Assembly (NCBI RefSeq): GCF_021432385.1
Contig: NZ_JAEACT010000002.1
Span: 502,016-566,015, forward strand
Length of the DNA stretch: 64,000 nucleotides
Reading direction: 5' to 3'
From: Clostridium hydrogenum
GTDB taxonomy: Bacteria > Bacillota > Clostridia > Clostridiales > Clostridiaceae
Shown one piece after another: positions 33,118-49,374 of this stretch. Numbering within the stretch: position 1 is the stretch's first letter; each line of letters starts with the position of its first letter. The translations under genes and the position numbers were made by a program. A model generated the notes under the pieces. It had not been told where the DNA came from, made no database searches, and saw nothing but the letters and a program-made list of their open reading frames with translations.

Positions 33118-33151
33118 AACCTTTATTCAGAGTACTCTGAATAAAGGTTTG
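33118..33151. terminator. bidirectional stem-loop between convergent genes
   Basis: Perfect 15-bp stem AACCTTTATTCAGAG/CTCTGAATAAAGGTT with the 4-nt loop TACT, flanked by T-rich sequence. It overlaps the last codons of the minus-strand ORF. Confidence 0.55.
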
Positions 33152-33569
33152 CAACAATTTCATTATTCTTAATCACCGTTCTTTGTTTAGGTAATGTTAT
33201 TTTATATTCATTATTTCCCAAAACATGTAGTACCACAAAATCATACGCAGTATTGCTGTCTTTATTCATACTTGTATCGTAAATTCGTATTCCGCCACCA
33301 ACTGCAAAGGTATATGTAGGGAATCCTTTTGCATTAAATAAAATTTCAATTTCATCATTCTTTTCACTTACCGAATTAATAGTAATTTTTTTATTATCAC
33401 CTACTGAGACATCAATCGGCAACTTGGAGTTTAATGGTAAATACTTTGGGTTTTTTACCTTAAAATCATTAGAAAAAACACTATCACCTTTTGGTTTAAG
33501 TATCATAATCCTAGAAAGCTTGCTACCTTCAATTTGCTTGTAAAATAAGTATTCTAAGTTCATAATCAA
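33123..33569 (-). CDS. hypothetical protein (beta-rich, could be a sigma-factor partner)
   Basis: 148 aa. Overlaps the 3' end of the sigma-factor gene by 41 nt in another frame. The track start is TTG; an ATG lies 2 codons downstream (33563). Confidence 0.4.
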   Translation of the reverse strand: MIMNLEYLFYKQIEGSKLSRIMILKPKGDSVFSNDFKVKNPKYLPLNSKLPIDVSVGDNKKITINSVSEKNDEIEILFNAKGFPTYTFAVGGGIRIYDTSMNKDSNTAYDFVVLHVLGNNEYKITLPKQRTVIKNNEIVANLYSEYSE

Positions 33570-33927
33570 TTTTATCTACCGTGCTTCTTATGTCTATTTT
33601 TCTAAAACCATTTTCTTCAAATGTACCTTCAACGTAATTTTCATAAGAAACAATTTTTCTTTTCTTATTAATAATTGCATTACAACTATTGATAAGAATT
33701 TTTATAAGCCATGTTTTAAAATACTCAGGCTTTTTCAACTTTCTTATACCTTCAAAAGCTTTAAGTATAGAATCTTGTATAGCATCTAAAGCATCGTCAT
33801 CATTTTTAAGCATTGCAATAGCTATTCTATATAAATCTTTTTCGTAAAGTTTTATAATTTGCGTAAATGCTTCTTTATTTCCTTTCCTAGCCACTTCTAC
33901 TAACCTTATCGAGTCCAAATTTCCCAT
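33529..33927 (-). CDS. sigma-70 family (ECF-like) RNA polymerase sigma factor, short or truncated
   Basis: Region 2-like segment (KEAFTQIIKLYEKDLYRIAIAMLKNDDDALDAIQDSILKAFEGIRKLKKPEYFKTWLIKILIN). GGAGGA RBS 6 nt before the internal ATG (M15, 33927). The ORF ends where region 4 would begin (VDKIDYELRILILQAN*). Confidence 0.5.
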   Translation of the reverse strand: MGNLDSIRLVEVARKGNKEAFTQIIKLYEKDLYRIAIAMLKNDDDALDAIQDSILKAFEGIRKLKKPEYFKTWLIKILINSCNAIINKKRKIVSYENYVEGTFEENGFRKIDIRSTVDKIDYELRILILQAN

Positions 33928-34343
33928 ATTATCCTCCAAAGCTAAAATATGATTACATTTTATATTCACATATTAGATAAGTTAAAACTACTTTTGGTTC
34001 TAACAAATTTTTCAATAGTAGTATGTTTTTTATCAATTTCTCTTTATATAAATCTACATAAAAATATTACATTTTATACAAATACTATTTAAAATTGTTA
34101 TGTGTTAGCTTAAAATAATAAAATTATAAACTTTATTGTCAATATGCATTTGTAAATTTTCACTATTACATTGTATTATTTACCAAATATATAATTGTAT
34201 GTAATTATATATTGTTTTATAGCATTCATTAGGTGTATACTTTTACATTTGATATGTAATCTAATTACAGAAATTGAAAAGAAAGTTTCGCAATGCTATA
34301 ACTTTACTCGTGATCACAAATATATATCACAGGAGGCAATAAT

Positions 34344-35201: not shown

Positions 35202-35615
35202 TTAAGATTGGTAACTTTCAATTTTAAATATAACTTGACCATATTGGACCATATCTTTATCTTTAACTAATATTTCTAATATAGTTCCATTAACTGGAGA
35301 AAGTATTTCAATAGTAACCTTTAAAAAATTAATTGTGCATAGTAATTGCTTTATCTTAACCCTTTCACCACGTTTTACATATAAATTGTTAATTTCATGA
35401 TTAAAAATATTTACTATGCCAACATATTGCGACTTAACTTCTATAATCTCACTTCTATTGTGAGTAGTGCAACAGATTTCATTTCTAGCGGTATTGAAAA
35501 CTTCTTGTGTCGCCTTTATATATAAATTATTTGTTTTTATTTCAACATATGTCATATTGGAATTTATTATTTGTTGAATTAGGTTAACAAGTTGAGATTC
35601 CTCCATATTCTTCAC
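35202..35615 (-). CDS. hypothetical protein, last gene of the RiPP/ABC operon
   Basis: 137 aa. C-terminal region (VSPVNGTILEILVKDKDMVQYGQVIFKIE) weakly resembles a biotin/lipoyl-like hybrid barrel. Confidence 0.4.
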   Translation of the reverse strand: MKNMEESQLVNLIQQIINSNMTYVEIKTNNLYIKATQEVFNTARNEICCTTHNRSEIIEVKSQYVGIVNIFNHEINNLYVKRGERVKIKQLLCTINFLKVTIEILSPVNGTILEILVKDKDMVQYGQVIFKIESYQS

Positions 35616-35659
35616 CTAGCTTACGAGTTTTTATAAGTACCTCAAATTTAATAGCTTAT

Positions 35660-36331
35660 TTACTTACTACTGCATATCCTACCATCTTTTATTTTAATAA
35701 CATCATCACATATTGAAGTAGATTCTAAGTTATGTGTAACCATTAATATAGTGGTCTTAAAATCATCACAAAGTTTTCTTAATAATTTTAAAATCATATC
35801 AGCATTTTGGGAATCTAAATTACCCGTTGGTTCATCGGCAAAAACAATCTTAGGGTTATTAACTAATGACCTTGCTATTGACACACGCTGTTGTTCTCCT
35901 CCTGATAAATATCCTGCTTTTTTATTTCTCTTATCATACAATCCTACATCTTTCATTAATTTATCAATAATATCTTTCTTTTTACCAAGTTCCCTATTCG
36001 CTATTATTATTGGTAATCTAATATTCTCTTCAATAGTCATCGTAGGTATAATATTATAAGATTGAAATACAAAACCTATATTATTACATCTAAACTCTGA
36101 CATTTTACTATCATTTAATTTCATTATATCAGTATTATCGATATATACTTCTCCTTTATCAGCAGTTAATAGCCCACTCAATGTATACAAAAGAGTACTT
36201 TTACCAGATCCCGAATTTCCTGTTATTGCAACAAATTTGCCATTTTCAACATTAAGTGATATATCCTGTAATACTGGTACATTTGTATTATTATTATCGT
36301 ACGACTTACAAACATTTACTGCTCTAATCAT
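35660..36331 (-). CDS. ABC transporter ATP-binding protein (MacB/FtsE-like)
   Basis: Walker A GNSGSGKST, signature LSGGEQQRV, Walker B VFADEPT, H-loop THN. 223 aa. Confidence 0.85.
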   Translation of the reverse strand: MIRAVNVCKSYDNNNTNVPVLQDISLNVENGKFVAITGNSGSGKSTLLYTLSGLLTADKGEVYIDNTDIMKLNDSKMSEFRCNNIGFVFQSYNIIPTMTIEENIRLPIIIANRELGKKKDIIDKLMKDVGLYDKRNKKAGYLSGGEQQRVSIARSLVNNPKIVFADEPTGNLDSQNADMILKLLRKLCDDFKTTILMVTHNLESTSICDDVIKIKDGRICSSK

Positions 36332-36341
36332 TTACAATCCC

Positions 36342-38858
36342 CTATTCATCCTTTATATTTTTAACAACATCGCATTTAACTGATTTTCTAACGGAAAAAA
36401 ACATGAACGTCAGTGATACACTAAGAACTAATATACCAATTATACAAGACTGTACTACTGAAAAACTACTTGGCACATTTACGCCACCTCCATTAGATGC
36501 TTTATTAAAAATCCCCACCAAATATTCAGTTGATATACTACTTCCACAAATGCCAACTACAATCACCACAAGAAATAATAACGCTATCTCTAAAAACGCT
36601 ATTCTAGTAGTGCTAATCTTGCTTAGACCAATAGACATTAGTAACGCTAATTGCTTTTTATTTTCACTTATTGTCATTACACATGTATTTACCAATAATG
36701 TCATTAAAGCAAGTTCTATGGTAAAGAAAAGAACTTCAATTGGTAGCATTCCTTCCATCACATTTTCCTGCCACATATATTTCATACCATTACGGTCATT
36801 ATAATCTACTTCCTTGCTTTTTTGCTTTCTTTCTTCTTTAATCTCTTCTTTGCTTTTTTGTGTAGTATCACCAAACAACGCTTGATCAATTTTATCTTCT
36901 GTGTCAAATCCATTTTTCTCATTTATATATTTAATTGGTATTCTACATGTTTCAGGCTTAAATTGATCCTTATCGCCAAAAGAAAATACAACCCTTCCTG
37001 AATAATCCATAGTATTAATTATATCAGCAATCCTAACATTTTTCTTTTTTTCTCCTACAATTACTTCCAACTCAGAATTTATTTTCTTGTGTAAATTATC
37101 AGCTAATTCCTGTGAAATTACAACATCGTTATTGTTATCTTTAATATACTGTAATCCATTTTCAAATAAATTTTGATTATACATTTCCTTTATGACCGAT
37201 TCACTAGTTACACAATAGTTAAATTGGTCTCCTAAATTACTTTTTGCTTGTCCTTCATATATGCTACCAATTGGTTCTATATTTCCAATCTTTTTAATGA
37301 TCTTTTGCACTTTACTTTCTTCGGAATCTGTATATTTATAATTAATCTCAATATCATACCTTAATTGTTTATCAACTTGATCCCTTGCCCAATTGTGGTA
37401 TGACTTAATTGTATTTGATAAGGAAAGCTGTATAAGAATTATTAATAAAAAAGAACATGCCAGCCCCTTGTTTTTACTAAAATTATTACTCATATTATGA
37501 GATACAAGAAGTGTAGTTCTATTTACCTTTAATTTCACTAATTTTCCGATGATCACTACTATATACGGAACCAAGCTAATAATTCCAACAATAAATAGTG
37601 CAAATAAAATTCCACATGATAACAATGTTAAGTTATTACTATTACAAACTAAATGGATAGTAATTGGGATAGCTATAGCTATGATACCCAGAGTAATTTT
37701 GATAGGATTATTTTTACTGCTATCTATTACTTCATCTTTAGCTTTAATAAGCTCATATGGGGTTTTCTTATTAAACCTTGTTGTTACAACTAAAACTGAT
37801 ACTATTGGCAGTACACCACCAACAACAATAGATATTAAAATGAATTCAAAACTCGGCACAAAACTCAAAATTGGTGTAGCTGTTAGAGTACAAACTCCAC
37901 ACCCTAATGCTATTCCTAAAGTAATTCCAAGAACTATACCAATACATGAATAAAACAAATTCTCAAGCACTATACAATATACCATCTCTCTATACTTAAG
38001 TCCTATAGTTCTTAAAACTGCCCAAAACTTAATACGTTCATTAATTATAACCGTATACGTATTTATAATTAAACTACACCCTAGAAATACAATAATAGCA
38101 ACTAAAAAAAGTAAACTATTTTGTAAAAATCCCATATCTTTTTCAACTTTAACATACTTTTGATAATCGTCAAAAACCTTTACCTCATCTCCATAGCTAT
38201 TATTTATCTTTTGTATTAACAATTTTGCATTGTTTGTATTGTGATTTAGATCTAGAAATATTCCACTTAAAGTATTACTACCATTTAAAATACCACTAGA
38301 AATAAATATTGTATCATTATCAGAGGTACTTGCATAATTTTCAGTTACTGCAGCAATCCTACATTCAGTTTTAATCCCATCAACCTCAACCTCTACATAA
38401 TCATTTAATTTAGCCCCCAGTTTTTTCATTAACTGCTTATTAACCACAATATCATTAGGTAATTTACTTATACTTCCTTGTACTATATTCATTTTTTCCA
38501 TGTAATTATAATCATTAAATTCTGTTTCATAAATATCTATACTTACTGGATTATCATTAAATGTTATATTACCTCCTTGTATAATATTAAAATTGACTTT
38601 CTTCTTTACATCACTATTGCTTATAATATTATCAATTTTTTTTCTATTAACCTCAGAATTAAATATCAGCCTTACATCTGAACTTCCACTTTTATTGACT
38701 TCTCTTATCTTCAGTCCGTTCATATTATTTGAGAACAATATTTCAGACATAATTATTATTGCCACTATTAGCATTACAGCAAAGGAAATAGGTATATTCC
38801 TCCTACGCTCTTTTGAATTGCTCACCCTATCTTTTATTAATATAATTTCTTTTTCCAT
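36342..38858 (-). CDS. ABC transporter permease, FtsX family (two FtsX modules)
   Basis: 838 aa, N-terminal TM, large extracytoplasmic domains, two 4-TM FtsX-like bundles. Adjacent to the ATPase. Confidence 0.75.
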   Translation of the reverse strand: MEKEIILIKDRVSNSKERRRNIPISFAVMLIVAIIIMSEILFSNNMNGLKIREVNKSGSSDVRLIFNSEVNRKKIDNIISNSDVKKKVNFNIIQGGNITFNDNPVSIDIYETEFNDYNYMEKMNIVQGSISKLPNDIVVNKQLMKKLGAKLNDYVEVEVDGIKTECRIAAVTENYASTSDNDTIFISSGILNGSNTLSGIFLDLNHNTNNAKLLIQKINNSYGDEVKVFDDYQKYVKVEKDMGFLQNSLLFLVAIIVFLGCSLIINTYTVIINERIKFWAVLRTIGLKYREMVYCIVLENLFYSCIGIVLGITLGIALGCGVCTLTATPILSFVPSFEFILISIVVGGVLPIVSVLVVTTRFNKKTPYELIKAKDEVIDSSKNNPIKITLGIIAIAIPITIHLVCNSNNLTLLSCGILFALFIVGIISLVPYIVVIIGKLVKLKVNRTTLLVSHNMSNNFSKNKGLACSFLLIILIQLSLSNTIKSYHNWARDQVDKQLRYDIEINYKYTDSEESKVQKIIKKIGNIEPIGSIYEGQAKSNLGDQFNYCVTSESVIKEMYNQNLFENGLQYIKDNNNDVVISQELADNLHKKINSELEVIVGEKKKNVRIADIINTMDYSGRVVFSFGDKDQFKPETCRIPIKYINEKNGFDTEDKIDQALFGDTTQKSKEEIKEERKQKSKEVDYNDRNGMKYMWQENVMEGMLPIEVLFFTIELALMTLLVNTCVMTISENKKQLALLMSIGLSKISTTRIAFLEIALLFLVVIVVGICGSSISTEYLVGIFNKASNGGGVNVPSSFSVVQSCIIGILVLSVSLTFMFFSVRKSVKCDVVKNIKDE

Positions 38859-38869
38859 ATATTCTCCTT

Positions 38870-40066
38870 TTATGCTTGTTGTTTATTTTTAACACCCTTT
38901 AATTTCTTAAGTATATCTACTATGCCTATACAAGGCAGCACAGTTACTATTGCAACAAAAATTTTTGTAAAAATTGAGTGTGCATCATACCAAGCTAAAA
39001 ATATCCATCTAGCCATAAATAAAAACATATAAGCTATAGCTATTAAACTAGCTATAAAATATATAAAATATACTCTTCTCTCCTTTTTGCTTATCTTATA
39101 AGCTTTATTCTTAAAGAACATATATTTAATTATATATGTTCTTACGTTGAATTTATTTAAAAGAATGGAAAATAAAAAATACCCATCAGTTAATGAAAAT
39201 GGACTTAAATTAGTTACAATAGCAATAAAATTACTTATAGCTACTATCTTACACATATCTCTAAAATTAGAGTCAATCCCTCCAAGCGATGCAATCCCTA
39301 AACTTACAAATGCAATAGCTAAATTTGTAACTAAACCAGCCATAACTATCTGTATTTTCTCAACATTTTTAAGTGTATTAATTCCCTTTACTTTAATATA
39401 AACAATAGGCATACATCCACTATATAAATTAAATGAAACTTTGTAAACGTCCTTTCCTAATGACAATGCAACAATAATATGTGATAATTCATGGGCTATT
39501 AATGAAAATCCTGACATAATTGTTAGATAAATAAATCCAGCTGAAGCAGAATTATTATACTTATACAATTGTTTTGTATTTCCCAAATCTAAAACATTGA
39601 AATTATTTATAGCAACTATAATACTAAAAAAAATCAATATACTATATAAAGCTATAAATAATTTCTTTATAGCTTTAGCTATTTCCTTTATTTTTTTGCT
39701 TTGAGGTTTCAGTATAACTTTAACTATCTCCTTTGACATAATATCAATTTCATTACTTATAATTCCACGCTGTTCATTTTCAATAAACCCATTATTCACT
39801 AATATCTTATAAAAGGCGCCAATATCTACTTTGCATTTTAATTCATCTTCAACTTTTGATTGCACATTGCTTAATGTACTACTTCCATCAAATAACTTTA
39901 TTATTCTTTGTACATATTTCAATTTATTTTTTGGTATCTTTATATATTTCTCCTTGTCCTCGCAAGCTAATACATAATACTCTTGTTTTCCAAATATGGA
40001 CTTATCCTCGATTATCTTATAGTCACTTACAAATTTAGGTTTAGCCTCTAAACTACTAGCCTCCAT
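38870..40066 (-). CDS. M50-family (site-2-protease-like) membrane zinc metalloprotease with N-terminal cytoplasmic domain
   Basis: HExxH within a TM helix (LIAHELSHIIVAL) and a downstream LDG-type motif (NLSPFSLTDGYFLF). Multiple TM helices. Its ATG overlaps the stop of the upstream rSAM gene (TAATG). Confidence 0.7.
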   Translation of the reverse strand: MEASSLEAKPKFVSDYKIIEDKSIFGKQEYYVLACEDKEKYIKIPKNKLKYVQRIIKLFDGSSTLSNVQSKVEDELKCKVDIGAFYKILVNNGFIENEQRGIISNEIDIMSKEIVKVILKPQSKKIKEIAKAIKKLFIALYSILIFFSIIVAINNFNVLDLGNTKQLYKYNNSASAGFIYLTIMSGFSLIAHELSHIIVALSLGKDVYKVSFNLYSGCMPIVYIKVKGINTLKNVEKIQIVMAGLVTNLAIAFVSLGIASLGGIDSNFRDMCKIVAISNFIAIVTNLSPFSLTDGYFLFSILLNKFNVRTYIIKYMFFKNKAYKISKKERRVYFIYFIASLIAIAYMFLFMARWIFLAWYDAHSIFTKIFVAIVTVLPCIGIVDILKKLKGVKNKQQA

Positions 40067-41472
40067 TAATTATCAACTCTCTCTAAACTTTTTTTATAAT
40101 ACTCGTAACTATTGAAATTTGCCTCTGAAAAATTAATTGATAACTTTTTTACATTCTTACTAAAGTTTTTATACTCCTCTTTATTTGTAACAAGTTTAAC
40201 AAGGTTTAATATTACCCTTTCAGTTATAACCCTTTGAACAGCACATCTTGATTCTATTACACTTTTTTTATTTCCATTAAACAAAAGTGAACTTCCTTCA
40301 CACCATAATGTACATACTCTATTGCAGAAACATTTTTTACATTTTTCTATCTCCGAACGATCTACCTTTTTAAATTCGTTCATTTTATCTTTTATATTTG
40401 ATTCATTATCAAAAATTGATGATATTTTGTCTTTTTTAGCTTCATAATACATTTGGCATGGATAAAACACTCCATCTATAGTATAAAATAATGACTCCTT
40501 ACCTGCTGTACAGTATTTAGCTTTTCTTTTTGTTACTATATTTATAATTATATTCAAAATTGTAATCGGAACTGTCATACATTTTTCTTCATCCTGTAAC
40601 ATTTCAAAACAATAATCAACCATATCATAATAAAATGTTCTTATATTTCTTTCAAATTCTGTAGGTAACTCATTCACATTATTGTAATCAGCTATATATG
40701 TAGATACATTCTGAGCCCCTAGTTCATAAAAATTATTAAAATATTCATTTATACTTCCGGCATTATATGTTCTTAAAAATGCCTCTCCCACCGTAGACTC
40801 TACCTCAAAAGTATATCCTCTATCTCTTAGCAATTTTAAGTTATTTAAAACTGTATCATAAGATCCTCTACCATCCTTAAATACTCTCATAGAATCATGA
40901 CATTCCTTATTTGCATCCATGCTAATAGTCACAAGAACACTATGTTCAATTATAAACTCAACAATTTCATTTGTAAGTAATGTACCATTTGTAATTACAC
41001 TAAATAGTGGCTGAGTAATGTTCTTTTGTCTACAAACATCTTCTGCATAACATATAAATTTTTCTATCTCACTAAATCCAATTAATGGTTCTCCGCCAAA
41101 AAAATTAATTACCTTTACACCATCAGGATAATTATTTAGAATAAATTCAAAAATCTTCTTATAATCATCAAATACCATTACTTTGTTGCCTTTTCTATCA
41201 TAAGTACCAGCATTTGCAAAACAGTACTTACAAGCCAAATTACAAGTTTCTGATGAACATATTATAAGATGTTTTAACCAAGTTCTATCAATAACATTAT
41301 TGGGAGTAACCATATCTTTTATTTTATCATTCTTAAAAACTTCTTTAATTTTTAAATTTATTTCATCTGGTTTACTACTATATAAAGCGATACTTGACGT
41401 TTCTGCATTATATAATATTTTTGTATTTTCATCCCTATCAATTACGTATACATTATCATACATCTTGTTCAT
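40066..41472 (-). CDS. radical SAM / SPASM-domain peptide-modifying enzyme
   Basis: CxxxCxxC (ETCNLACKYCFANAG), a GGEP motif (FFGGEPLIG), and a C-terminal Cys-rich SPASM-like region (KYCTAGKESLFYTIDGVFYPCQ...CKKCFCNRVCTLWCEGSS...RCAV). About 70 aa of N-terminal extension precede the rSAM core. Confidence 0.85.
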   Translation of the reverse strand: MNKMYDNVYVIDRDENTKILYNAETSSIALYSSKPDEINLKIKEVFKNDKIKDMVTPNNVIDRTWLKHLIICSSETCNLACKYCFANAGTYDRKGNKVMVFDDYKKIFEFILNNYPDGVKVINFFGGEPLIGFSEIEKFICYAEDVCRQKNITQPLFSVITNGTLLTNEIVEFIIEHSVLVTISMDANKECHDSMRVFKDGRGSYDTVLNNLKLLRDRGYTFEVESTVGEAFLRTYNAGSINEYFNNFYELGAQNVSTYIADYNNVNELPTEFERNIRTFYYDMVDYCFEMLQDEEKCMTVPITILNIIINIVTKRKAKYCTAGKESLFYTIDGVFYPCQMYYEAKKDKISSIFDNESNIKDKMNEFKKVDRSEIEKCKKCFCNRVCTLWCEGSSLLFNGNKKSVIESRCAVQRVITERVILNLVKLVTNKEEYKNFSKNVKKLSINFSEANFNSYEYYKKSLERVDN

Positions 41473-41574
41473 TAACTTTTCCCCCTATGATATTTATTTT
41501 TTATATCCTTTTTAATATCGAGAAGCACTGCCAACAAAATTAATTGCTAGCAAGTGCTAAAGGTTATATATTAA

Positions 41575-41709
41575 CTAGCAGCAGTGATAGCCACCAAAAG
41601 AAAATCCACTTACAACTTCTTCAATCTCACTAAGATCATCAAATGAGACCATTTCTAAATTTTCTTCATCTAATATTTTGTTTTCATTTTCTCTTTCATT
41701 CTTTATCAT
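41575..41709 (-). CDS. RiPP precursor peptide paralog 1 (44 aa)
   Basis: GGAGGG RBS. Translation: MIKNERENENKILDEENLEMVSFDDLSEIEEVVSGFSFGGYHCC*. Not in the ORF track. Confidence 0.7.
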   Translation of the reverse strand: MIKNERENENKILDEENLEMVSFDDLSEIEEVVSGFSFGGYHCC

Positions 41710-41849
41710 AATAAACCCTCCCCTCTTATCTGATTATTTGTTTATAATCTTATTACCTTGTAAAGAACCATATGTTTATTTATTCATATTATTCAAATAT
41801 ATGTCATACAAGGTTAAAATTTTTTTATTATTTTCCTAACTAATCTTAA

Positions 41850-41984
41850 TTAGCAACAGTGATAGCCACCAAAAGAAAATCCACTTACAACCTCTTCAAT
41901 CTCACTAAGATCATCAAATGTAACCATTTCTAAATTTTCTTCATTTAATATTTTGTTTTCATTTTTCTCTTCATTTTTTGTCAT
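41850..41984 (-). CDS. RiPP precursor peptide paralog 2 (44 aa)
   Basis: RBS GGAGCG. Translation: MTKNEEKNENKILNEENLEMVTFDDLSEIEEVVSGFSFGGYHCC*. Confidence 0.7.
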   Translation of the reverse strand: MTKNEEKNENKILNEENLEMVTFDDLSEIEEVVSGFSFGGYHCC

Positions 41985-42033
41985 AATAAAACGCTCCTTT
42001 AATCTTTTAATTTACCATATTAACTATTCTAAA

Positions 42034-42168
42034 TTAGCAACAATATTGAGTTCCTGCAGAAAATCCACTTACAACCTCTTCCATTTCACTGAGATCATCA
42101 AATGTAACCATTTCTAAATTTTCTTCACTTAATACCTTGTTTTCATTTTCTTTTTCATTTTTCATCAT
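42034..42168 (-). CDS. RiPP precursor peptide paralog 3 (44 aa)
   Basis: RBS GGGGTG. Translation: MMKNEKENENKVLSEENLEMVTFDDLSEMEEVVSGFSAGTQYCC*. Confidence 0.7.
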   Translation of the reverse strand: MMKNEKENENKVLSEENLEMVTFDDLSEMEEVVSGFSAGTQYCC

Positions 42169-42252
42169 AATAAAACACCCCTTTTAATTTTTTTAATATA
42201 TAATAAACTCAATCAAAAATTATTAAAACTTTGTTATATTATCTATTGTTAA

Positions 42253-42387
42253 CTAACAACAATATTGACTTCCTGCAGAAAATCCGCTTACAACTTCTTC
42301 CATTTCGCTAAGATCATCAAATGTAACCATTTCTAAATTTTCTTCACTTAATACCTTGTTTTCATTTTCTTCATTATTCATCATCAT
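42253..42387 (-). CDS. RiPP precursor peptide paralog 4 (44 aa)
   Basis: RBS GGGGGGG. Translation: MMMNNEENENKVLSEENLEMVTFDDLSEMEEVVSGFSAGSQYCC*. Confidence 0.7.
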   Translation of the reverse strand: MMMNNEENENKVLSEENLEMVTFDDLSEMEEVVSGFSAGSQYCC

Positions 42388-42466
42388 TGCAAATCCCCCC
42401 CCTTCAAATTTTATAATTTCAATTAACTATTTAGTTTTACATTTATTTATTGATTGAATTTATATC

Positions 42467-43579
42467 TTAATTTGTGACTATGGAATTAACTTTTTTCATA
42501 ATTTCAGCCTCTATTTTGGAAACTTCCTCTAGTCTAATAATCAAATCTTTTAGAAATGAAATTTTGCATCCAATGTAATTTTTATTATTATATAGTTTTC
42601 TAATTATATATCTCCATTTGATACTTAAATCCATCATTTTTTGTGCTTCAATAACTAACTCATCACTTTTAATATCCTTTCCAAACATTATTAATGCCTT
42701 TGCTATCTCTTCTCTTTCAAAAGTGCTTGTCCCTATTATTAATCCTTTTCTAAGGATTTTTGATTGTAATGTAAAAATTTTACTTGTTATATCCTCCTTA
42801 TTGGTATATCTTTTAATCATATCTATAAATTCATTAAGATATTCTATTATATACTTATATGCATTTTTACCACTTGTGAAATAAACATTATCACAATATT
42901 GTGTTAACTTGCTTTCCTTTGAATAGTTATCAGAAAATATAGCTATTTGCCTTAATATCAGTGTTCTTAATTTATCCTTATCCAATGACATTTTACTGTT
43001 TTTTTCAATTATAAATGCTCGTCCACTTGGCGACATTGGATATATTTTACTTTGCCTACTTCTTTTAAAATCCTCATAATCTACACTTATATATTCCTCA
43101 GTACTTGCAAGTGAACTCAATATTAGCTTTTCTTCTAAAACCCCTATTACTATTCCAGAAGATATATTGCTAATTCTTGCACTATTTTTTTTATATCTAT
43201 CTAACATCTCACTAGTATCGAAATAATAAACTACAGTTTGTTTATTAGAAACATATTCTTTAATTTTCTCAAGTGAATCTGTATTTTCCTTATCTAATTC
43301 AAAAACATTAAAACCTAATGATTTCAAAACATATATTTCAACCTCCTCATCACCAGGAAATATCTGGCACAAGTTTAGTTTGTTATAATTCTTTATTAAA
43401 AAGAAATTTATAATATTATTTAGACTTAATAACAATATATATTCAAAGCTTACTTCTTCATTTTTTAACCTTAGTAAATCGTAGATACATTTAATTCTAC
43501 AATGCCTATTTCTTTCATGTATGCCTTTATACTTATAAAGTAATGAATCTTCCACTATACTCCCTCCAATTTTTTGCAC
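42467..43579 (-). CDS. hypothetical protein (370 aa) between the KS/ACP genes and the precursor array, candidate transferase
   Basis: Intact ORF with RBS. No motif I can assign with confidence. Its position suggests a role linking the ACP-bound product and the peptide. Confidence 0.5.
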   Translation of the reverse strand: MQKIGGSIVEDSLLYKYKGIHERNRHCRIKCIYDLLRLKNEEVSFEYILLLSLNNIINFFLIKNYNKLNLCQIFPGDEEVEIYVLKSLGFNVFELDKENTDSLEKIKEYVSNKQTVVYYFDTSEMLDRYKKNSARISNISSGIVIGVLEEKLILSSLASTEEYISVDYEDFKRSRQSKIYPMSPSGRAFIIEKNSKMSLDKDKLRTLILRQIAIFSDNYSKESKLTQYCDNVYFTSGKNAYKYIIEYLNEFIDMIKRYTNKEDITSKIFTLQSKILRKGLIIGTSTFEREEIAKALIMFGKDIKSDELVIEAQKMMDLSIKWRYIIRKLYNNKNYIGCKISFLKDLIIRLEEVSKIEAEIMKKVNSIVTN

Positions 43580-43602
43580 GAAAGTATTTTTTTATTAAAA
43601 AT

Positions 43603-45954
43603 CTATAATTTGCATTTTTTTAATATAACCGCACTATATGAGTGAGGATATGAGTAACTAGTAATCAAAATATTATTTATATCTGTTTTTAAACCTCTAC
43701 AATAGTAAATACTATTTTCATACAACTTATTTTCCCCACGCAATACCAATGCAGCATGTGCTATTTGCATTGAACTTGTTGCCGCTCGTCCTTCTCCTAA
43801 AATATCCTTAATTGAAATGATAGAAATATCGTTAAAAATATTCTTATAAATTTTTAGCTCCATCTCATCTATATTCTTATGCCCATTTGCAAGCCCCACA
43901 ATAGCCCCTATATCACAAGGATTTAATTTACACCGTTGTAATGCCATACTTATTGCGTACTTTAATCCTTCGCCATCATAATTAATTTTTGAAGAATCAT
44001 TATACATGCCATATCCCAAAACTTCAGCGTACTTCCTTCCATTTCTCTTATTGACGCTTTCTTCTGATTCTAAAACTATACTCCCAGCACCTTCAGTGAT
44101 TTCAAAACCATTATTTCTAAAGCTATCTGTTACTGAATTTTTATCATAGTTTGCCATATCATATGCTTTTTTTATGGTATCATTTATTTCATCTACCCCA
44201 GAAGCTATTATGCATTGGCTTCTATTTAGCTTTATTAAGTCATAGGAATAACAGAAACTATGAATTCCACTTTCTATACCATTTACTAATGTCGCTGTAT
44301 ATCCTTTTGCTTTTGTTATCATTGATAAATACCCTGCTGCGGTATTATATGATATACTTGGAAATAAAATTGCACTTGTGCCTTTAGTTCCCTTTTGTAT
44401 AATTTGCTTTATATAACTTTCAATTGTATTTATGGGTCCATCGCTTGTACCGACTATTATACCTACATCTTCTAATTGATTAAAATCAATTTTCGCATCA
44501 CTTATTGCATTTATCCCTGAAACAGTTAACATCTTTGAAAATCTATCCATTCTTCTTAAATACTTACTCTTAATACAATCAAATTTTTTTAAATTCTGCT
44601 CAAAATTTTCCATTTCATTTATATGCTTATCACCGTTTCTTTTTGTAAAAAAATCTATGTAGCTATCCTTACCTATTCCAAGGCAATTTACCATACCAAT
44701 TCCAGTTATAAATACTCTCGGTTGATTTAATTCCTCCGCTTTATATGAATTTACTTTCCTAGAAAATATAACAGACGAATTAACTCCACCAAAAGCTAAC
44801 GAATTAGACATTATATTATTTGTATTATACTTAATAAACTTATTAGGAATAAAATCCATATTATAATTTTGATTATTTTTATCAAAATTCATAGTTGGCG
44901 GTAATACATTATTCTCCATAGATTTTATTGATATTATCGCTTCTAATATGCCTGCTGCACCAAGGCAATGCCCTATCATCGATTTAGTTGAGCTTATCTT
45001 TATGGAATTTAATTTTTTTGCAAACAGTTTTTCATAACATCTTTTTTCAGTTGTGTCATTTAAATACGTTCCAGTTCCATGTGCATTTACATAATCTATA
45101 TCACTAGCATTTAATTTTGACATGTTTAAAGCAGACTCCATTGCTTTTAATTGAGTTTCTCCTGATGGTTCAGGTGATGTTACATGATATGCATCGCTTG
45201 TAGTTCCATATCCTAATACTTCACAATACATCTTTGCATTTCTTTTATTTGCATGCTCCAAAGATTCTACTATAATTATTCCTGCCCCTTCTCCTAATGT
45301 TAACCCATCACTTTTTGAAAATGGTGAACATTCATTACTAGATAATGCTTTTAAAGCATGGAATCCTGAAAACTGAGTATTACTAAGTGCATCAGCTCCA
45401 CCTACAATCATTACATCGACATTTCCTCTTTTAATCAAATCACATCCATATGCAATACTTATATTGGAAGATGCACACGCATCTGCAATACTTTCTACAG
45501 GACCACATATTTCAAAATATTCCGATATTTTTTCAGCAATATTTCTTATGCTGATTTTATCAATATCACTTTTAAAAATTTCCTTGCCCTTATCAATTTT
45601 TCTTAGGACGGTTTCACGTGAGTTCATTCCGCCCATGCAACTTCCTATAGCTATTCCTATTCTGCTTTTATCCAATTCACATATGTTTAACTGTGAATCC
45701 TCAATTGCCTCTATACATGCTTTTAAGGCCATCATTGTTGTATTATTTAATTCTTCTCTGATTTTAGAATGAAATTCGAAATTATCAATTTCAGCTCCTA
45801 CCATTGTATAACATCCATCAGTATTAACCTTGCTTAATTTTTTAAAACCAACTTTTCCATTTACTGTATTTAAAAAAGTATCATTTACATTTTCTCCATT
45901 ACAGCATGTACACCCCATACCAGTTACAACACATCTAATCATTTCCATCACCAC
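43603..45954 (-). CDS. tandem beta-ketoacyl synthase protein (KS + chain-length-factor-like second KS domain)
   Basis: Domain 1 carries the KS triad: active-site Cys in IADACASSNISIAYG, and His in VNAHGTGTYLND and SMIGHCLGAAG. Domain 2 (from about aa 410) is KS-like but lacks the active-site Cys (TSDGPINT), as in CLF/KS-beta. Confidence 0.8.
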   Translation of the reverse strand: MVMEMIRCVVTGMGCTCCNGENVNDTFLNTVNGKVGFKKLSKVNTDGCYTMVGAEIDNFEFHSKIREELNNTTMMALKACIEAIEDSQLNICELDKSRIGIAIGSCMGGMNSRETVLRKIDKGKEIFKSDIDKISIRNIAEKISEYFEICGPVESIADACASSNISIAYGCDLIKRGNVDVMIVGGADALSNTQFSGFHALKALSSNECSPFSKSDGLTLGEGAGIIIVESLEHANKRNAKMYCEVLGYGTTSDAYHVTSPEPSGETQLKAMESALNMSKLNASDIDYVNAHGTGTYLNDTTEKRCYEKLFAKKLNSIKISSTKSMIGHCLGAAGILEAIISIKSMENNVLPPTMNFDKNNQNYNMDFIPNKFIKYNTNNIMSNSLAFGGVNSSVIFSRKVNSYKAEELNQPRVFITGIGMVNCLGIGKDSYIDFFTKRNGDKHINEMENFEQNLKKFDCIKSKYLRRMDRFSKMLTVSGINAISDAKIDFNQLEDVGIIVGTSDGPINTIESYIKQIIQKGTKGTSAILFPSISYNTAAGYLSMITKAKGYTATLVNGIESGIHSFCYSYDLIKLNRSQCIIASGVDEINDTIKKAYDMANYDKNSVTDSFRNNGFEITEGAGSIVLESEESVNKRNGRKYAEVLGYGMYNDSSKINYDGEGLKYAISMALQRCKLNPCDIGAIVGLANGHKNIDEMELKIYKNIFNDISIISIKDILGEGRAATSSMQIAHAALVLRGENKLYENSIYYCRGLKTDINNILITSYSYPHSYSAVILKKCKL

Positions 45955-45959
45955 TCAGC

Positions 45960-46220
45960 TTAATTGATTTTAGTAATAATTAAATTAGCCAAGTCTCGTA
46001 TACATTTAATAGATTTCTCATCATCACTTGTAATTGTAATTCCAAACATATCTTCAGCAGTTGATGTTATTTCAATTATGTCTAGCGAATCTAATTCTAA
46101 TCCTCCATCAAAAAATTCTTGATCATATGTTAATCTTTCGGCATCAATATCTAGTTTTAACTTTTCAATTATTTCTTTCTTTAGCTTTGCACAAATATCC
46201 TCTTGACTATATTTCATCAT
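45960..46220 (-). CDS. acyl carrier protein
   Basis: 86 aa, acidic. Phosphopantetheine attachment motif GGLELDSLDIIEI, where the Ser of DSL is the attachment site. Confidence 0.75.
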   Translation of the reverse strand: MMKYSQEDICAKLKKEIIEKLKLDIDAERLTYDQEFFDGGLELDSLDIIEITSTAEDMFGITITSDDEKSIKCIRDLANLIITKIN

Positions 46221-46594
46221 TTATCCCCACTTTCATTTTTATTATATTCCCACAATAATATTTAACTTTTGTTAAAATACTAATTTACGTTTAGAATCGT
46301 ACAATTAGCATATTTTTTGATTTTAACAACCAATATGTAATATATTAAAATTATTATTTTACAATTCCTTATTTGTATTATACTTCCAATTAACTTTATA
46401 TTCAATACTTTTTTGTATTATTTTGCCAAATATATTTTTCTAACTATCAAGTTTCTGTAAATATAAAGCAAAAACACCTTAATTCATACTTTTTAAGTAT
46501 AAATTAAGGTGTTTTTATTAAATTTAGGTATAACACAAAAAGTGTAAATACATTTTTAATTATATATTTTAAATTATTTGCTACAAATGTTGAG

Positions 46595-47203
46595 TTACCT
46601 AAAAAGTTTTTCCCCAATCTCTACAAAGGCTTGGAACATTATAAACGCCCTCATATCCATTTTCACATCTTCTTTTAATAACTTTTTAACTTCATCTTGC
46701 GAAAGTAGCATTACTTCAATGTCCTCATCTTCCTCAAGAAACTCATTAGATACAGTTCCCTTGCAAGTGCAGAAAACTATTGCTGCTGATTCATCTGTCA
46801 TACCTGCTGAGGCATAAACCTTCTTTTTAGTTTTTTCATGATTTATTTCAATAAGTTCAAGTCCTGTTTCTTCTTTCAATTCTCTTGCAGCTGCAACATC
46901 AAAACTCTCATTTCCATCAACAAGTCCTGCTGGAAGCTCATATACATAATCATTTAAAGGAACCCTAAATTGTCTTACACATACTATTTTTTTACTTTCA
47001 ACATGAAGTGCAGCAATTATTGCAGCATCGACTCTCTCCTCTGCCCCTTCAAAATATTGTTTTTTAAGTGTTTCATAATCTTTTCTTGAAGCAATTGTCC
47101 AATGCTTTAAACTTCCCATTTTATTTTCATATTCTGCATCATAAAGACTCAAAAATTTTGATCCTGCCATGGTTGTTAACTTCTTTATTTTATTTTCTTT
47201 CAT
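46595..47203 (-). CDS. NUDIX hydrolase (ADP-ribose pyrophosphatase-like)
   Basis: NUDIX box PAGLVDGNESFDVAAARELKEETGL. The start is set at the ATG with RBS GAGGGTGA (MKENKIKK), not the upstream track ATG at 47239. Confidence 0.75.
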   Translation of the reverse strand: MKENKIKKLTTMAGSKFLSLYDAEYENKMGSLKHWTIASRKDYETLKKQYFEGAEERVDAAIIAALHVESKKIVCVRQFRVPLNDYVYELPAGLVDGNESFDVAAARELKEETGLELIEINHEKTKKKVYASAGMTDESAAIVFCTCKGTVSNEFLEEDEDIEVMLLSQDEVKKLLKEDVKMDMRAFIMFQAFVEIGEKLFR

Positions 47204-47231
47204 ATGTATCACCCTCATTTTCAAAAAAATC

Positions 47232-47270
47232 ATCCACATTCATACTATATATTTTAGCATAAATGTGGAT
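47232..47270. promoter_or_regulatory. conserved stem-loop motif, copy 1 (ATCCACATT-N21-AATGTGGAT)
   Basis: 9-bp perfect stem with the 21-nt loop CATACTATATATTTTAGCATA. A near-identical stem and loop recur at 50317..50355. Sits between an HK stop and the NUDIX start. Confidence 0.5.
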
Positions 47271-47286
47271 AAGTATGCTTTTATAT

Positions 47287-48717: not shown

Positions 48718-49374
48718 TTATTCCTCCAGCTTATATCCTAATCCAAACACTGTTTTTATATCATCCTTTAAATTCAATTTTTTTCTAATACGTTGGATAT
48801 GGCTATCTATGGTTCTTGTTTCACCTATATAGTCATACCCCCATATCTTTTCTAGCAATCTTTCTCTTGTAAGTACAATATTCTTATTTTGCACTAAAAT
48901 TAAAATAAGCTCAAACTCCTTAAGTGTAAGTTTTACAAAGTCTCCATTTTGTTTCACAGTTCTTTCTTGCAAATTAATTTCTATATACTTATACCTAAGT
49001 ATATTTTCCACTTTATTATAATGCCTAAGTACATTTTCAATTCTTGCAAGCAGTTCAACACCTTCAAAAGGCTTTGTCATGTAATCATCGGCACCCATTT
49101 TTAACCCATATACCTTATCTGCGATTGAATCCTTTGCTGTTAAAAAAATACTAGGAATGTTATACCCCTTAATTTTTTTAAACAAAGTAAATCCATCTAC
49201 CTTTGGCAGCATTACATCTATAATCGCCAAATCAAAGGTTTCTTCTTCGATCATATCCAAAGCCTCTTTGCCATTATATGCTTGTCTACTATCATAGTTT
49301 GACATACTTAAATTTAGCTTTATTAAATCAGAAATTGGGACATCATCTTCAACTATTAATATTTTCATTATCAA
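48718..49374 (-). CDS. OmpR/PhoB-family response regulator
   Basis: Receiver domain (KILIVEDD, LAIIDVMLP, LTAKD) plus a winged-helix domain (LTLKEFELILIL, GLGYKLEE). Confidence 0.9.
   Translation of the reverse strand: MIMKILIVEDDVPISDLIKLNLSMSNYDSRQAYNGKEALDMIEEETFDLAIIDVMLPKVDGFTLFKKIKGYNIPSIFLTAKDSIADKVYGLKMGADDYMTKPFEGVELLARIENVLRHYNKVENILRYKYIEINLQERTVKQNGDFVKLTLKEFELILILVQNKNIVLTRERLLEKIWGYDYIGETRTIDSHIQRIRKKLNLKDDIKTVFGLGYKLEE

What the first reader, a model, noticed from the sequence alone, without database searches (positions are those of the whole stretch)
38870..41472. Translationally coupled rSAM/SPASM maturase and M50 intramembrane-type metalloprotease
The rSAM stop and the protease start overlap (TAATG at 40064..40068). 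The protease carries an HExxH inside a TM helix plus an LDG-like motif (M50/site-2-protease signature) and a cytoplasmic N-terminal domain of about 130 aa. An M50 family protease acting as leader peptidase, stoichiometrically coupled to the maturase, is an uncommon RiPP processing arrangement. The rSAM itself has a roughly 70-aa N-terminal extension that could act as a leader-binding (RRE-like) domain.
Basis: partly seen in the sequence, partly recalled or inferred. Interest (0 to 1): 0.6.

Follow-up and report, generated by a model that had tools for sequence, protein, structure and literature searches.

The report
Peptide maturase coupled to membrane leader-protease
A radical-SAM peptide-modifying enzyme and a membrane-embedded zinc protease that carries its own leader-peptide-binding domain form a conserved gene pair inside an 11-kb Clostridium operon. 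The operon looks like an undescribed pathway for short, cysteine-bridged and probably acylated peptides, although this type of protease is already known from daptides.

Summary
On the minus strand a 468-aa rSAM/SPASM gene (40066-41472) ends in TAATG, which starts a 398-aa HExxH / NxxPxxxxDG membrane protease (38870-40066). The protease gene is the only one in the operon without a G-rich Shine-Dalgarno sequence.

- The rSAM N-terminal extension is about 30 aa shorter than in SCIFF-type maturases, so it is at best a truncated RRE.

What looks new is the system. The pair recurs in 15 related loci (18 pairs). Precursors share a daptide-like leader end, E-Φ-E-x-Φ-x-x-G/A/P (Φ = hydrophobic), and short cores with Cys-Cys. 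Several loci also carry a BtrH_N/DUF4872 acyltransferase-like protein and ACP/KS or PKS genes. The window has ACP, a KS-CLF fusion, the BtrH-like gene, four precursors, rSAM, M50 and a MacB-type exporter.

I found no published description. The chemistry is inferred, not shown.

The parts
45960..46220 (-). Acyl carrier protein (86 aa) with an LDSLD phosphopantetheine-attachment motif (Ser45). It is the first gene of the operon.
   Evidence: Pfam PP-binding 1e-9. NCBIfam ACP models up to 9.6e-12. Motif located. A 20-bp-stem terminator-like hairpin at 46470-46516 separates it from the upstream NUDIX gene.
43603..45954 (-). Fused ketosynthase / chain-length-factor-like protein (783 aa). The N-half is a FabF-like KS with active-site Cys160. 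The C-half is a KS fold without the Cys and His catalytic residues.
   Evidence: NCBIfam fabF 6.9e-149 with two matched stretches, and AmcF 1.9e-79. Aligning the two halves puts C160 opposite Ile and shows the His residues lost.
42467..43579 (-). BtrH_N/DUF4872-family protein (370 aa), a putative ACP-dependent acyltransferase.
   Evidence: It has no direct Pfam hit. An HMM built from it and five syntenic homologues hits the L015 homologue at 3.4e-55 over its full length. That homologue passes the Pfam gathering scores for BtrH_N (1.3e-9) and DUF4872 (1.1e-8). Relatives also hit NCBIfam DarH_acyl at 4.9e-7 and 1.7e-5.
42253..42387 (-). Precursor peptide 1 (44 aa): ...MVTFDDLSEMEEVVSG | FSAGSQYCC
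   Evidence: ORF with a strong SD. The leader motif is shared with precursors of related loci.
42034..42168 (-). Precursor peptide 2 (44 aa): ...SEMEEVVSG | FSAGTQYCC
   Evidence: It lies in one of four 193-nt tandem units.
41850..41984 (-). Precursor peptide 3 (44 aa): ...SEIEEVVSG | FSFGGYHCC
41575..41709 (-). Precursor peptide 4 (44 aa): ...SEIEEVVSG | FSFGGYHCC
40066..41472 (-). Radical SAM/SPASM peptide maturase (468 aa).
   Evidence: Pfam Radical_SAM, Fer4_12 and SPASM. NCBIfam PapB 1.8e-47 and SCIFF 2e-44, all below the equivalog cut-offs. PDB best match is CteB 5wgg at 3.1e-28. It is 100% identical to a Clostridium hydrogenum protein.
41269..41472 (-). rSAM N-terminal extension (residues 1-68): a strand-rich remnant of the SCIFF-type RRE that lacks most of the helical half.
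   Evidence: Alignment A7. The first Cys of CX3CX2C lies at a median position of 74 in the 20 closest relatives, against 104 in the SCIFF-like remainder. No structure was predicted.
41221..41244 (-). CX3CX2C radical-SAM cluster motif (CNLACKYC, residues 77-84).
40243..40512 (-). SPASM auxiliary-cluster cysteine region (C321, C339, C378, C381, C383, C387, C391, C410).
40064..40068 (-). TAATG stop/start overlap between the rSAM and protease genes.
   Evidence: The protease gene has only AGAGAGAG upstream, whereas every other well-defined gene has GGGGG, GGAGG or AGGAG.
38870..40066 (-). RRE-fused M50/site-2-type intramembrane metalloprotease (398 aa), the predicted leader peptidase.
39782..40039 (-). 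RiPP recognition element (residues about 10-95) of the protease: three beta-strands followed by three helices.
39479..39493 (-). HELSH zinc-binding/catalytic motif (residues 192-196) in a transmembrane helix.
39182..39211 (-). NLSPFSLTDG motif (residues 286-295). D294 is the predicted third zinc ligand.
36342..38858 (-). MacB/FtsX-type ABC permease (838 aa), the probable exporter.
   Evidence: Pfam FtsX 1.6e-15 and MacB_PCD 5.5e-6. The same gene follows the pair in L002, L009, L014 and L016.
35660..36331 (-). ABC ATPase (223 aa, LolD/MacB type).
   Evidence: Pfam ABC_tran 6.9e-37. NCBIfam LolD 3e-69 and bacteriocin-export ABC 2.8e-61.
35202..35615 (-). 137-aa protein with a biotin/lipoyl (barrel-sandwich) domain. 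It is the last gene of the operon and its role is unresolved.
   Evidence: Pfam Biotin_lipoyl 2.1e-13 and weak HlyD hits. It is also present in L002.

Best explanation
The two genes are the core of a RiPP pathway.

**Proposed steps (inferred unless marked as shown)**
1. The four 44-aa precursors end their leader in E-M/I-E-E-V-V-S-G. This is bound by the complete RRE that forms the cytoplasmic N-terminal domain of the 398-aa membrane protein.
2. The rSAM/SPASM enzyme modifies the 9-residue core (FSAG(S/T)QYCC or FSFGGYHCC). The most likely chemistry is thioether bridging from the conserved Cys-Cys pair. This enzyme is made in fixed proportion with the protease, by termination-reinitiation at TAATG.
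3. The M50/site-2-type active site (HELSH plus D294) lies at the cytoplasmic face of the membrane. It cuts after the small residue at position -1 (Gly here).
4. The peptide leaves through the MacB-type ABC exporter encoded immediately downstream.
5. In this operon and several relatives, a BtrH-type acyltransferase probably moves an acyl chain onto the peptide. The chain would be built on the operon's own ACP by the KS-CLF fusion. The most likely acceptor is the amino terminus freed by the protease.

**Shown here:** the motifs, the fold of the protease, the RRE, the conserved synteny and the shared leader motif.

**Inferred:** the cleavage site, the thioether chemistry, the acylation and the order of steps.
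For: **Protease identity**
- HExxH and NxxPxxxxDG are invariant across relatives.
- The AF2 model is of high quality (pLDDT 92.7).
- The NCBIfam daptide intramembrane metalloprotease model aligns over residues 35-377, covering both domains.
- In daptides this fusion protein is the leader peptidase. The leader motif there is ELExMEAP, L(-7) and M(-4) are essential, and cleavage follows P(-1) (PMC10036551). The leaders here have E(-8), a hydrophobic residue at -7, E(-6), a hydrophobic residue at -4 and G/A/P at -1, in all related loci.
- The motif persists in loci that lack the BtrH-like gene (L011) and in one that lacks the rSAM (L012). The protease is the only partner present in every case.

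**Coupling**
- The TAATG overlap and the absence of an own SD.
- 16 rSAM-to-M50 pairs in related loci. The ORFs overlap in 10, and all but one lie within 20 nt. Two more loci have the inverted order.

**rSAM**
- Closest to thioether-forming maturases: PapB, SCIFF/CteB and CcpM.
- Cys-Cys or CxC is conserved in the cores.

**Acylation**
- The BtrH_N/DUF4872 family assignment.
- Carrier-protein and KS or PKS genes lie in the window, L003, L009, L013 and L014.
- In L013 the carrier-protein gene overlaps the BtrH-like gene.
Against: - No biochemical data exist for any member of this family.
- The window protease itself does not reach Pfam M50 significance (E 0.36). It scores 53.7 bits against a 300-bit cut-off for the daptide model, so its function is transferred from distant relatives.
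- All rSAM subfamily models are below cut-off, so the chemistry is open. It could be epimerisation, C-C cross-linking or Cys modification.
- The BtrH-like protein has a C39/papain-like fold family and could itself be a peptidase. Its conserved Cys27 is Asn in the L013 homologue, and no good structural model could be made (pLDDT 38.9).
- The window operon has no KR, DH or ER genes, so the nature of the acyl chain is unknown.
- L012 has the protease and the BtrH-like protein but no rSAM, so the pair is not obligatory.
Confidence: 0.65

Rival explanations
1. The BtrH_N/DUF4872 protein (C39/papain-like fold family) is the true leader peptidase and cuts a double-glycine-like site (VVSG|). The M50 protein would then serve another role, such as export, immunity or a second trimming step.
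For: The L015 homologue gives a weak Peptidase_C39_2 hit (0.017) alongside BtrH_N. A Cys near the N-terminus is conserved in 5 of 6 homologues. The window, L003 and L007 leaders end in S-G or N-G. From the review PMC10885120, deleting the epipeptide M50 protease EpeP did not abolish product formation.
Against: Other loci end the leader in T-P, C-P, F-A, T-A or C-A, which are not C39 sites. L010, L011, L016 and several others have the same pair without any BtrH-like gene. No His is conserved in the family alignment, and the Cys is missing in L013. The named relatives of this family (BtrH, DarH) are acyltransferases. The gene co-occurs with carrier proteins.
Confidence: 0.12
2. The pair works as described, but the rSAM does not make thioethers. 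It would carry out another radical reaction on the core, for example epimerisation as YydG does, C-C or C-O cross-linking, or modification of the C-terminal cysteines.
For: All thioether-maturase models are far below their cut-offs, for example PapB at 162 bits against 340. The enzyme belongs to a distinct clade with a shortened N-terminus. The other known rSAM + M50 system makes epimerised peptides (my knowledge of yydFGHIJ; PMC10885120).
Against: The best hits in NCBIfam and the PDB are all Cys-thioether enzymes. The only universally conserved core feature is a pair of cysteines. A full SPASM cysteine set is present.
Confidence: 0.2
3. The peptides are scaffolds. The M50 enzyme would act like the pearlin proteases TglG and TmoG, releasing a small molecule derived from the modified C-terminal cysteine(s).
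For: M50 proteases that cut at the C-terminus of scaffold peptides exist (PMC10885120). The window peptides end in Cys-Cys.
Against: In related loci the Cys pair is followed by variable tails (NS, VF, NTTDFC, K, GGTGSV, NNI), so the C-terminus is not fixed. There is no PEARL/tRNA-dependent ligase or MNIO gene. The leader end matches the daptide recognition and cleavage motif.
Confidence: 0.04
4. The M50 protein is a housekeeping or regulatory intramembrane protease (RseP/RasP/SpoIVFB type), and its position next to the rSAM gene is incidental.
Against: There is no PDZ or CBS domain. An RRE domain is present instead. Only 1 of 100 relatives hits the RseP model. Adjacency to an rSAM and small peptides is conserved in 15 distinct related loci (18 pairs) at 25-39% identity.
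Confidence: 0.02

Closest known systems
Daptide leader peptidase MpaP/DapP (RRE fused to an intramembrane site-2 protease; NCBIfam NF041824; Ren et al. 2023, PMC10036551)
   Same: The two-domain architecture (N-terminal RRE plus M50 core) is the same. The profile match is full-length. Multiple tandem precursors are followed by an ABC exporter. The leader end has acidic and hydrophobic residues in the same register and a small residue at -1.
   Different: The score is 53.7 bits against a 300-bit cut-off. There is no aminotransferase, oxidoreductase, methyltransferase or DUF-RRE (MpaB) gene. The cores are 9-15 residues with Cys-Cys rather than long aliphatic helices ending in Thr. The partner enzyme is an rSAM/SPASM.
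Epipeptide system yydFGHIJ / epeXEPAB (rSAM epimerase YydG, M50 protease YydH/EpeP, ABC transporter; NCBIfam NF058609)
   Same: The operon logic is the same: small peptide, rSAM, M50 membrane protease, ABC transporter. The profile hit is 1.9e-9 over the membrane core.
   Different: The YydH-type profile is only 246 positions long and matches only residues 108-299, so it has no RRE domain. The rSAM here is a SPASM enzyme closest to thioether formers, not a YydG-type epimerase. The extra ACP, KS and BtrH-like genes are absent from epipeptide operons.
SCIFF/ranthipeptide and sactipeptide maturases (CteB 5wgg, PapB, CcpM)
   Same: They share the CX3CX2C motif plus the SPASM cysteines. The best sequence and PDB matches fall here. 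The substrates are Cys-containing.
   Different: All equivalog cut-offs are missed. The N-terminal RRE is shortened by about 30 residues. The partner is an RRE-bearing membrane protease rather than a soluble or C39-ABC protease.
BtrH (butirosin) and DarH (dialkylresorcinol/aryl-polyene) ACP-dependent acyltransferases
   Same: They share the BtrH_N + DUF4872 architecture. They are also encoded next to carrier-protein and type-II KS, CLF, ApeI-type dehydratase and KR genes.
   Different: The relationship is very distant: the window protein itself has no direct Pfam hit. The presumed acceptor is a ribosomal peptide rather than an aminoglycoside or resorcinol. Activity is untested.
Lipidated RiPPs (lipolanthines, goadvionins, selidamides, lipoavitides) - recalled from memory, not tested here
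   Same: The concept of joining a fatty-acid or polyketide chain to a ribosomal peptide.
   Different: As I recall, those systems use GNAT-type or other acyltransferases with lanthipeptide, avionin or other scaffolds. None that I know of uses a BtrH-type enzyme, an rSAM/SPASM maturase or an RRE-M50 protease.

Membership tests
Peptidase M50 / site-2 protease | HExxH in a transmembrane helix | tested here: met
   HELSH at residues 192-196 lies in helix 174-202. H192, E193 and H196 are invariant in 138 relatives.
Peptidase M50 / site-2 protease | Second motif NxxPxxxxDG, with the Asp as third zinc ligand | tested here: met
   NLSPFSLTDG at residues 286-295. D294 is invariant, and P289 and G295 are nearly invariant.
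Peptidase M50 / site-2 protease | S2P membrane-core fold | tested here: met
Peptidase M50 / site-2 protease | Pfam PF02163 gathering score | tested here: not met
   The window protein scores E 0.36 and 10.6 bits against a 27.2-bit cut-off. However, 94 of its 100 relatives hit PF02163 at E <= 0.01, the best at 1.2e-11.
Daptide intramembrane metalloprotease (NF041824, MpaP) | N-terminal RRE fused to the S2P core | tested here: met
Daptide intramembrane metalloprotease (NF041824, MpaP) | Equivalog score cut-off (300 bits) | tested here: not met
   53.7 bits. The best of the 100 relatives reaches 1.4e-34.
Daptide intramembrane metalloprotease (NF041824, MpaP) | Daptide context: precursors ending in Thr, plus aminotransferase, oxidative decarboxylase and methyltransferase genes | tested here: not met
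   The precursors end in Cys-Cys. None of these genes lies in 35202-46220.
YydH/LiaK epipeptide protease (NF058609) | Equivalog score cut-off (225 bits) | tested here: not met
   37.6 bits, matching residues 108-299 only.
Housekeeping RseP/RasP | PDZ domain(s) between the catalytic motifs | tested here: not met
   No PDZ hit in Pfam. The AF2 model shows only a beta-hairpin between the TM helices.
Radical SAM / SPASM | CX3CX2C motif plus the C-terminal 7-8 Cys for auxiliary clusters | tested here: met
   C77, C81 and C84, plus C321, C339, C378, C381, C387, C391 and C410, are conserved. Pfam Radical_SAM 5.6e-16. SPASM scores 18.2 bits, just under the 21.5-bit cut-off.
SCIFF / PapB / CcpM thioether maturases | Equivalog score cut-offs | tested here: not met
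   PapB 162 against 340, SCIFF 152 against 425, CcpM 142 against 500.
SCIFF / PapB / CcpM thioether maturases | Formation of Cys-S to carbon cross-links | not testable with these tools
   Needs MS/NMR of the product or an in vitro assay.
Anaerobic sulfatase maturase | Equivalog score and a sulfatase substrate | tested here: not met
   91 bits against 349. The neighbouring genes are precursor peptides, not sulfatases.
RRE (PqqD-like) domain in the rSAM N-terminus | Three strands followed by three helices, about 85 aa | tested here: inconclusive
   Only 68 residues precede the core. Alignment with SCIFF maturases shows the strand part kept and most of the helical part missing.
BtrH_N/DUF4872 acyltransferases | BtrH_N followed by DUF4872 | tested here: met
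   Met only indirectly. The window protein has no direct hit. The family HMM links it to L015_366 at 3.4e-55, and that protein passes both Pfam gathering scores. The L013 and L003 homologues hit BtrH_N, DUF4872 and DarH_acyl weakly.
BtrH_N/DUF4872 acyltransferases | Acyl transfer from acyl-ACP to an acceptor | not testable with these tools
   Needs an enzyme assay.

The most novel reading that the evidence does not exclude
This operon may represent an undescribed class of polyketide/fatty-acid-RiPP hybrids. In it, a BtrH-type ACP-dependent acyltransferase would acylate a short thioether-bridged peptide. The only complete leader-recognition domain of the pathway sits on the intramembrane protease. 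That domain could serve in trans for the rSAM maturase, whose own RRE has decayed, which would explain why the two genes are kept overlapping and translationally coupled.
Probability: 0.3. Interest if true: 0.8.

Novelty: new variant of a known kind. Interest (0 to 1): 0.6.

Why it matters
The RRE-fused site-2 protease has so far been tied to one RiPP class, the daptides. Here the same leader/peptidase module, with a recognisably similar leader end, is attached to a different chemistry: an rSAM/SPASM enzyme acting on Cys-Cys cores. In several loci it is also attached to carrier-protein, KS or PKS genes through a BtrH-type enzyme.

If this is confirmed, three things follow:
- The RRE-M50 protease plus its leader motif becomes a class-independent handle for genome mining.
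- It adds a new way of joining polyketide or fatty-acid chains to ribosomal peptides.
- It gives a test case for whether an RRE on a protease can also present the substrate to a separate maturase.

The producers are anaerobic Firmicutes, including gut metagenome contigs, a group in which few RiPP products have been characterised.

Tried and rejected
- **AF2 of the 370-aa BtrH-like protein as a single sequence failed** (pLDDT 38.9), so no fold search was run on it.
- **A PDB sequence search with the BtrH-like profile gave nothing useful**. The word-index homologue search found only the protein itself.
- **The genome-contig scan with the protease alignment found no relative**. The family seems absent from, or very rare in, species-representative genomes.
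- **The afdb50 fold library was not available**.
- **A conserved Ser at core position 2 is not the acylation site.** This looked possible from the window, L003, L007, L009 and L013. It was rejected because L015 has a BtrH-like gene but cores without that Ser (GDGTWGCC, GNGTIGCC, NVGGTLACC).
- **Cys27 of the BtrH-like protein is not an invariant catalytic nucleophile.** It is Asn in the L013 homologue.
- **Literature searches found no description of this family.** The searches covered BtrH+RiPP, DUF4872, ranthipeptide+lipidation, site-2 protease+rSAM+RRE and M50+sactipeptide. The library lacks most subscription-journal papers, so this is not proof of absence.
- **The closest rSAM relative without an M50 neighbour (L006, Lutisporaceae) has a longer N-terminus** (first Cys at position 90). 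This is suggestive, but it is a single case.


Full report
**Observation**

All genes discussed are on the minus strand. A 468-aa ORF (40066-41472) and a 398-aa ORF (38870-40066) share one base, and the sequence reads TAATG.

The first ORF is a radical SAM/SPASM protein:
- CNLACKYC lies at residues 77-84.
- A C-terminal set of cysteines (C321, C339, C378, C381, C387, C391, C410) is invariant or nearly so in relatives.
- Pfam gives Radical_SAM 5.6e-16, Fer4_12 2.9e-9 and SPASM 0.0031.

The second ORF has HELSH (192-196) and NLSPFSLTDG (286-295). H192, E193, H196 and D294 are invariant in 138 relatives.

The rSAM protein is 100% identical to a protein of Clostridium hydrogenum, and the window has about 28% G+C. 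One-base overlaps are common; other pairs in the window overlap too. However, the protease gene is the only gene of the operon without a G-rich Shine-Dalgarno sequence (AGAGAGAG against GGGGG, GGAGG or AGGAG). That fits termination-reinitiation.

**The protease**

Pfam does not call the window protein directly (E 0.36). NCBIfam matches the daptide intramembrane metalloprotease model over residues 35-377 (1.7e-14, 53.7 bits, cut-off 300). It matches the YydH/LiaK epipeptide protease model over the membrane core only (1.9e-9).

An exhaustive phmmer search found 540 representative clusters at E <= 1e-3. Nearly all are 360-420 aa and aligned end to end, so the two-domain layout is a family trait. 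Of 100 relatives, 94 hit Pfam Peptidase_M50, 99 hit the daptide model, 96 hit the YydH model, 1 hits RseP and 1 hits PqqD.

AF2 with a 138-sequence alignment gave pLDDT 92.7 and pTM 0.90. The model has these parts:
- **Residues 17-91:** three strands followed by three helices.
- **Then six long helices,** with HELSH in helix 174-202 and a beta-hairpin at 206-227.

The Foldseek top hit is 3b4r_A at probability 0.99. The protein is therefore an RRE fused to an M50/site-2 protease core, without a PDZ domain. By helix order, both catalytic motifs sit at the cytoplasmic ends of their helices, on the same side as the RRE. This topology is an inference from the model.

**What is already known**

[quoted passage not shown] It also reports the following (PMC10036551):
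- The precursors carry the leader motif ELExMEAP.
- L(-7)A and M(-4)A abolish RRE-dependent processing.
- MpaP is an "RRE-dependent intramembrane peptidase".

A review lists M50 proteases in epipeptides (EpeP) and pearlins (TglG, TmoG) (PMC10885120). From my own knowledge, the epipeptide operon yydFGHIJ also reads precursor, rSAM, M50, ABC. An M50 leader peptidase, and an rSAM next to an M50 protease, are therefore uncommon but not new.

**Comparative genomics**

I retrieved the contexts of rSAM and protease relatives at 25-41% identity. I annotated them with HMMs built here.

An rSAM gene directly precedes the protease gene in L001, L002, L003 (two pairs), L007, L009, L013, L014, L015, L016, L017, L019, L020, L021, L022 and L026.
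- The ORFs overlap in 10 of these 16 pairs.
- All but L016 (88 nt) lie within 20 nt.
- In L010 and L011 (Epulopiscium) the order is inverted but still contiguous.
- Only L012 has the protease without an rSAM.
- The one rSAM relative without a protease neighbour is L006.

The precursors next to these pairs share a leader end:

| Locus | Leader end | Core |
|---|---|---|
| window | DLSEMEEVVSG | FSAGSQYCC |
| L003 | DLKEMEEVVSG | GSVGPIFCCNS |
| L007 | DAQEMEDVING | ASFGVVGCCVF |
| L009 | ELEELEEIVFA | SSQGDSSCCNTTDFC |
| L011 | FEDMEEIVTP | GFFGVIICC |
| L013 | ELEELEEIVCP | SSNGCCGCC |
| L014 | DMEAIEEVICA | GIGGTICGCDNN |
| L015 | LEEMEEIICP | GNGTIGCCNNI |
| L016 | EIEELESVVSA | ASGCGCLIKD |
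| L012 | LEEIEQVITA | NMSIVSGNANSNFC |

Counting back from the small residue gives E(-8), hydrophobic(-7), E(-6), x, hydrophobic(-4), x, x, G/A/P(-1). Daptides have E(-8) L(-7) E(-6) x M(-4) E A P(-1). The positions essential there (-7 and -4) and the cleavage-site residue are matched.

The motif is kept in loci without the BtrH-like gene and in the locus without the rSAM. The protease is the only partner always present. That is the main argument that the protease's RRE reads this motif and that cleavage follows residue -1. The cleavage site is an inference by analogy.

**The rSAM**

The best NCBIfam hits are PapB (1.8e-47), the SCIFF maturase (2e-44), nif11 and CcpM, all far below cut-off. 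Anaerobic sulfatase maturase scores 91 bits against 349. The best PDB relative is CteB (3.1e-28). The only core feature conserved across the family is a pair of cysteines. Thioether formation is therefore the most likely chemistry, but it is not shown.

- In the alignment with SCIFF maturases, the strand-rich part is kept and most of the helical part is missing.
- The first radical-SAM Cys lies at a median position of 74 in the 20 closest relatives, against 104 in the SCIFF-like remainder.
- No stand-alone PqqD-like ORF is present in the operon.

The only complete RRE of the pathway is therefore on the protease. It may also serve the rSAM. That hypothesis would explain the tight gene coupling, but I could not test it.

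**The larger operon**

A terminator-like hairpin (46470-46516) lies upstream of the ACP gene, and the strand switches below 35202. Between these limits, the gaps between enzyme genes run from -1 to 44 nt, and the gaps flanking the precursor genes from 49 to 140 nt. In transcription order the operon contains:
1. **ACP** (45960-46220).
2. **KS-CLF fusion** (43603-45954). Its second half has lost the catalytic Cys and His residues.
3. **370-aa protein** (42467-43579).
4. **Four precursor genes** in 193-nt tandem units.
5. **rSAM.**
6. **Protease.**
7. **MacB/FtsX permease.**
8. **ABC ATPase.**
9. **137-aa lipoyl-type protein.**

The 370-aa protein has no direct family hit, but it has syntenic homologues in L003, L007, L009, L012, L013, L015 and L021. 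A profile built from six of them matches the L015 protein at 3.4e-55. That protein passes the Pfam gathering scores for BtrH_N and DUF4872. The L013 and L003 homologues also hit NCBIfam 'BtrH-related acyltransferase DarH'.

Carrier-protein, KS or PKS genes accompany the module in several loci:

| Locus | Accompanying genes |
|---|---|
| window | ACP, KS-CLF fusion |
| L003 | KS, KS-like, KR, ApeI-type dehydratase, an A-C protein |
| L009 | ACP, two KS, dehydratase, KR, PPTase, thioesterase |
| L013 | 5022-aa type I PKS, A-PCP-C, and a carrier-protein gene overlapping the BtrH-like gene |
| L014 | ACP, KS, dehydratase |

The simplest reading is that an ACP-bound chain is transferred to the peptide. 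The acceptor atom is unknown. A conserved Ser was considered and rejected.

**Verdict**

It also puts the RRE on the wrong protein.

The protease is a new, distant member of a known kind. The system around it (rSAM/SPASM, RRE-M50, Cys-Cys cores, and optionally a BtrH-type enzyme with PKS/FAS genes) is not described in the literature I could search. It is a good candidate for a new RiPP family. All the chemistry remains inference.

Noticed in passing
window 43603-46220 (-): An ACP gene and a fused KS/CLF-like gene open the same operon. The second KS half has lost the catalytic Cys and His residues. No KR, DH or ER genes are present in the operon.
   Followed up: partly
window 42467-43579 (-): A 370-aa protein has no direct family hit. 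Through syntenic homologues it belongs to the BtrH_N/DUF4872 (ACP-dependent acyltransferase) family. AF2 on the single sequence failed.
   Followed up: partly
window 41558-42428: The four precursor genes lie in tandem 193-nt units that are 73-83% identical. They encode two pairs of cores (FSAG(S/T)QYCC and FSFGGYHCC).
   Followed up: yes
window 35202-35615 (-): A 137-aa protein with a biotin/lipoyl barrel-sandwich domain closes the operon after the ABC ATPase, and is also present in L002. It could be a minimal MacA-like adaptor or a BCCP-like protein.
   Followed up: no
window 46470-49374 (-): A response regulator, a histidine kinase and a NUDIX gene lie directly upstream, separated from the ACP gene by a 20-bp-stem hairpin. 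Whether they regulate the operon is unknown.
   Followed up: no
L003 12600-15506: A second rSAM/RRE-M50 pair lies in the same locus. It has a different 48-aa Cys-rich peptide (…DSCFHVCINCIDCFCIKISCISF) with a different leader.
   Followed up: no
L012 8868-11471: A BtrH-like gene, an RRE-M50 gene and a 43-aa peptide with the same leader motif occur together, but there is no rSAM and no Cys-Cys. The pair is followed by two M23 peptidase genes. The protease/leader module can therefore work without the rSAM.
   Followed up: partly
L013 1-9188: A 5022-aa type I PKS and an A-PCP-C protein sit immediately upstream of the carrier protein, BtrH-like gene, precursor, rSAM and M50 module. This is the clearest hint of a PKS-RiPP hybrid.
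   Followed up: partly
window 33123-33969 (-): A 146-aa ORF with only sigma-70 region 2 overlaps a 148-aa ORF of unknown function by 41 nt. This could be a truncated ECF sigma factor or a sigma/anti-sigma pair.
   Followed up: no
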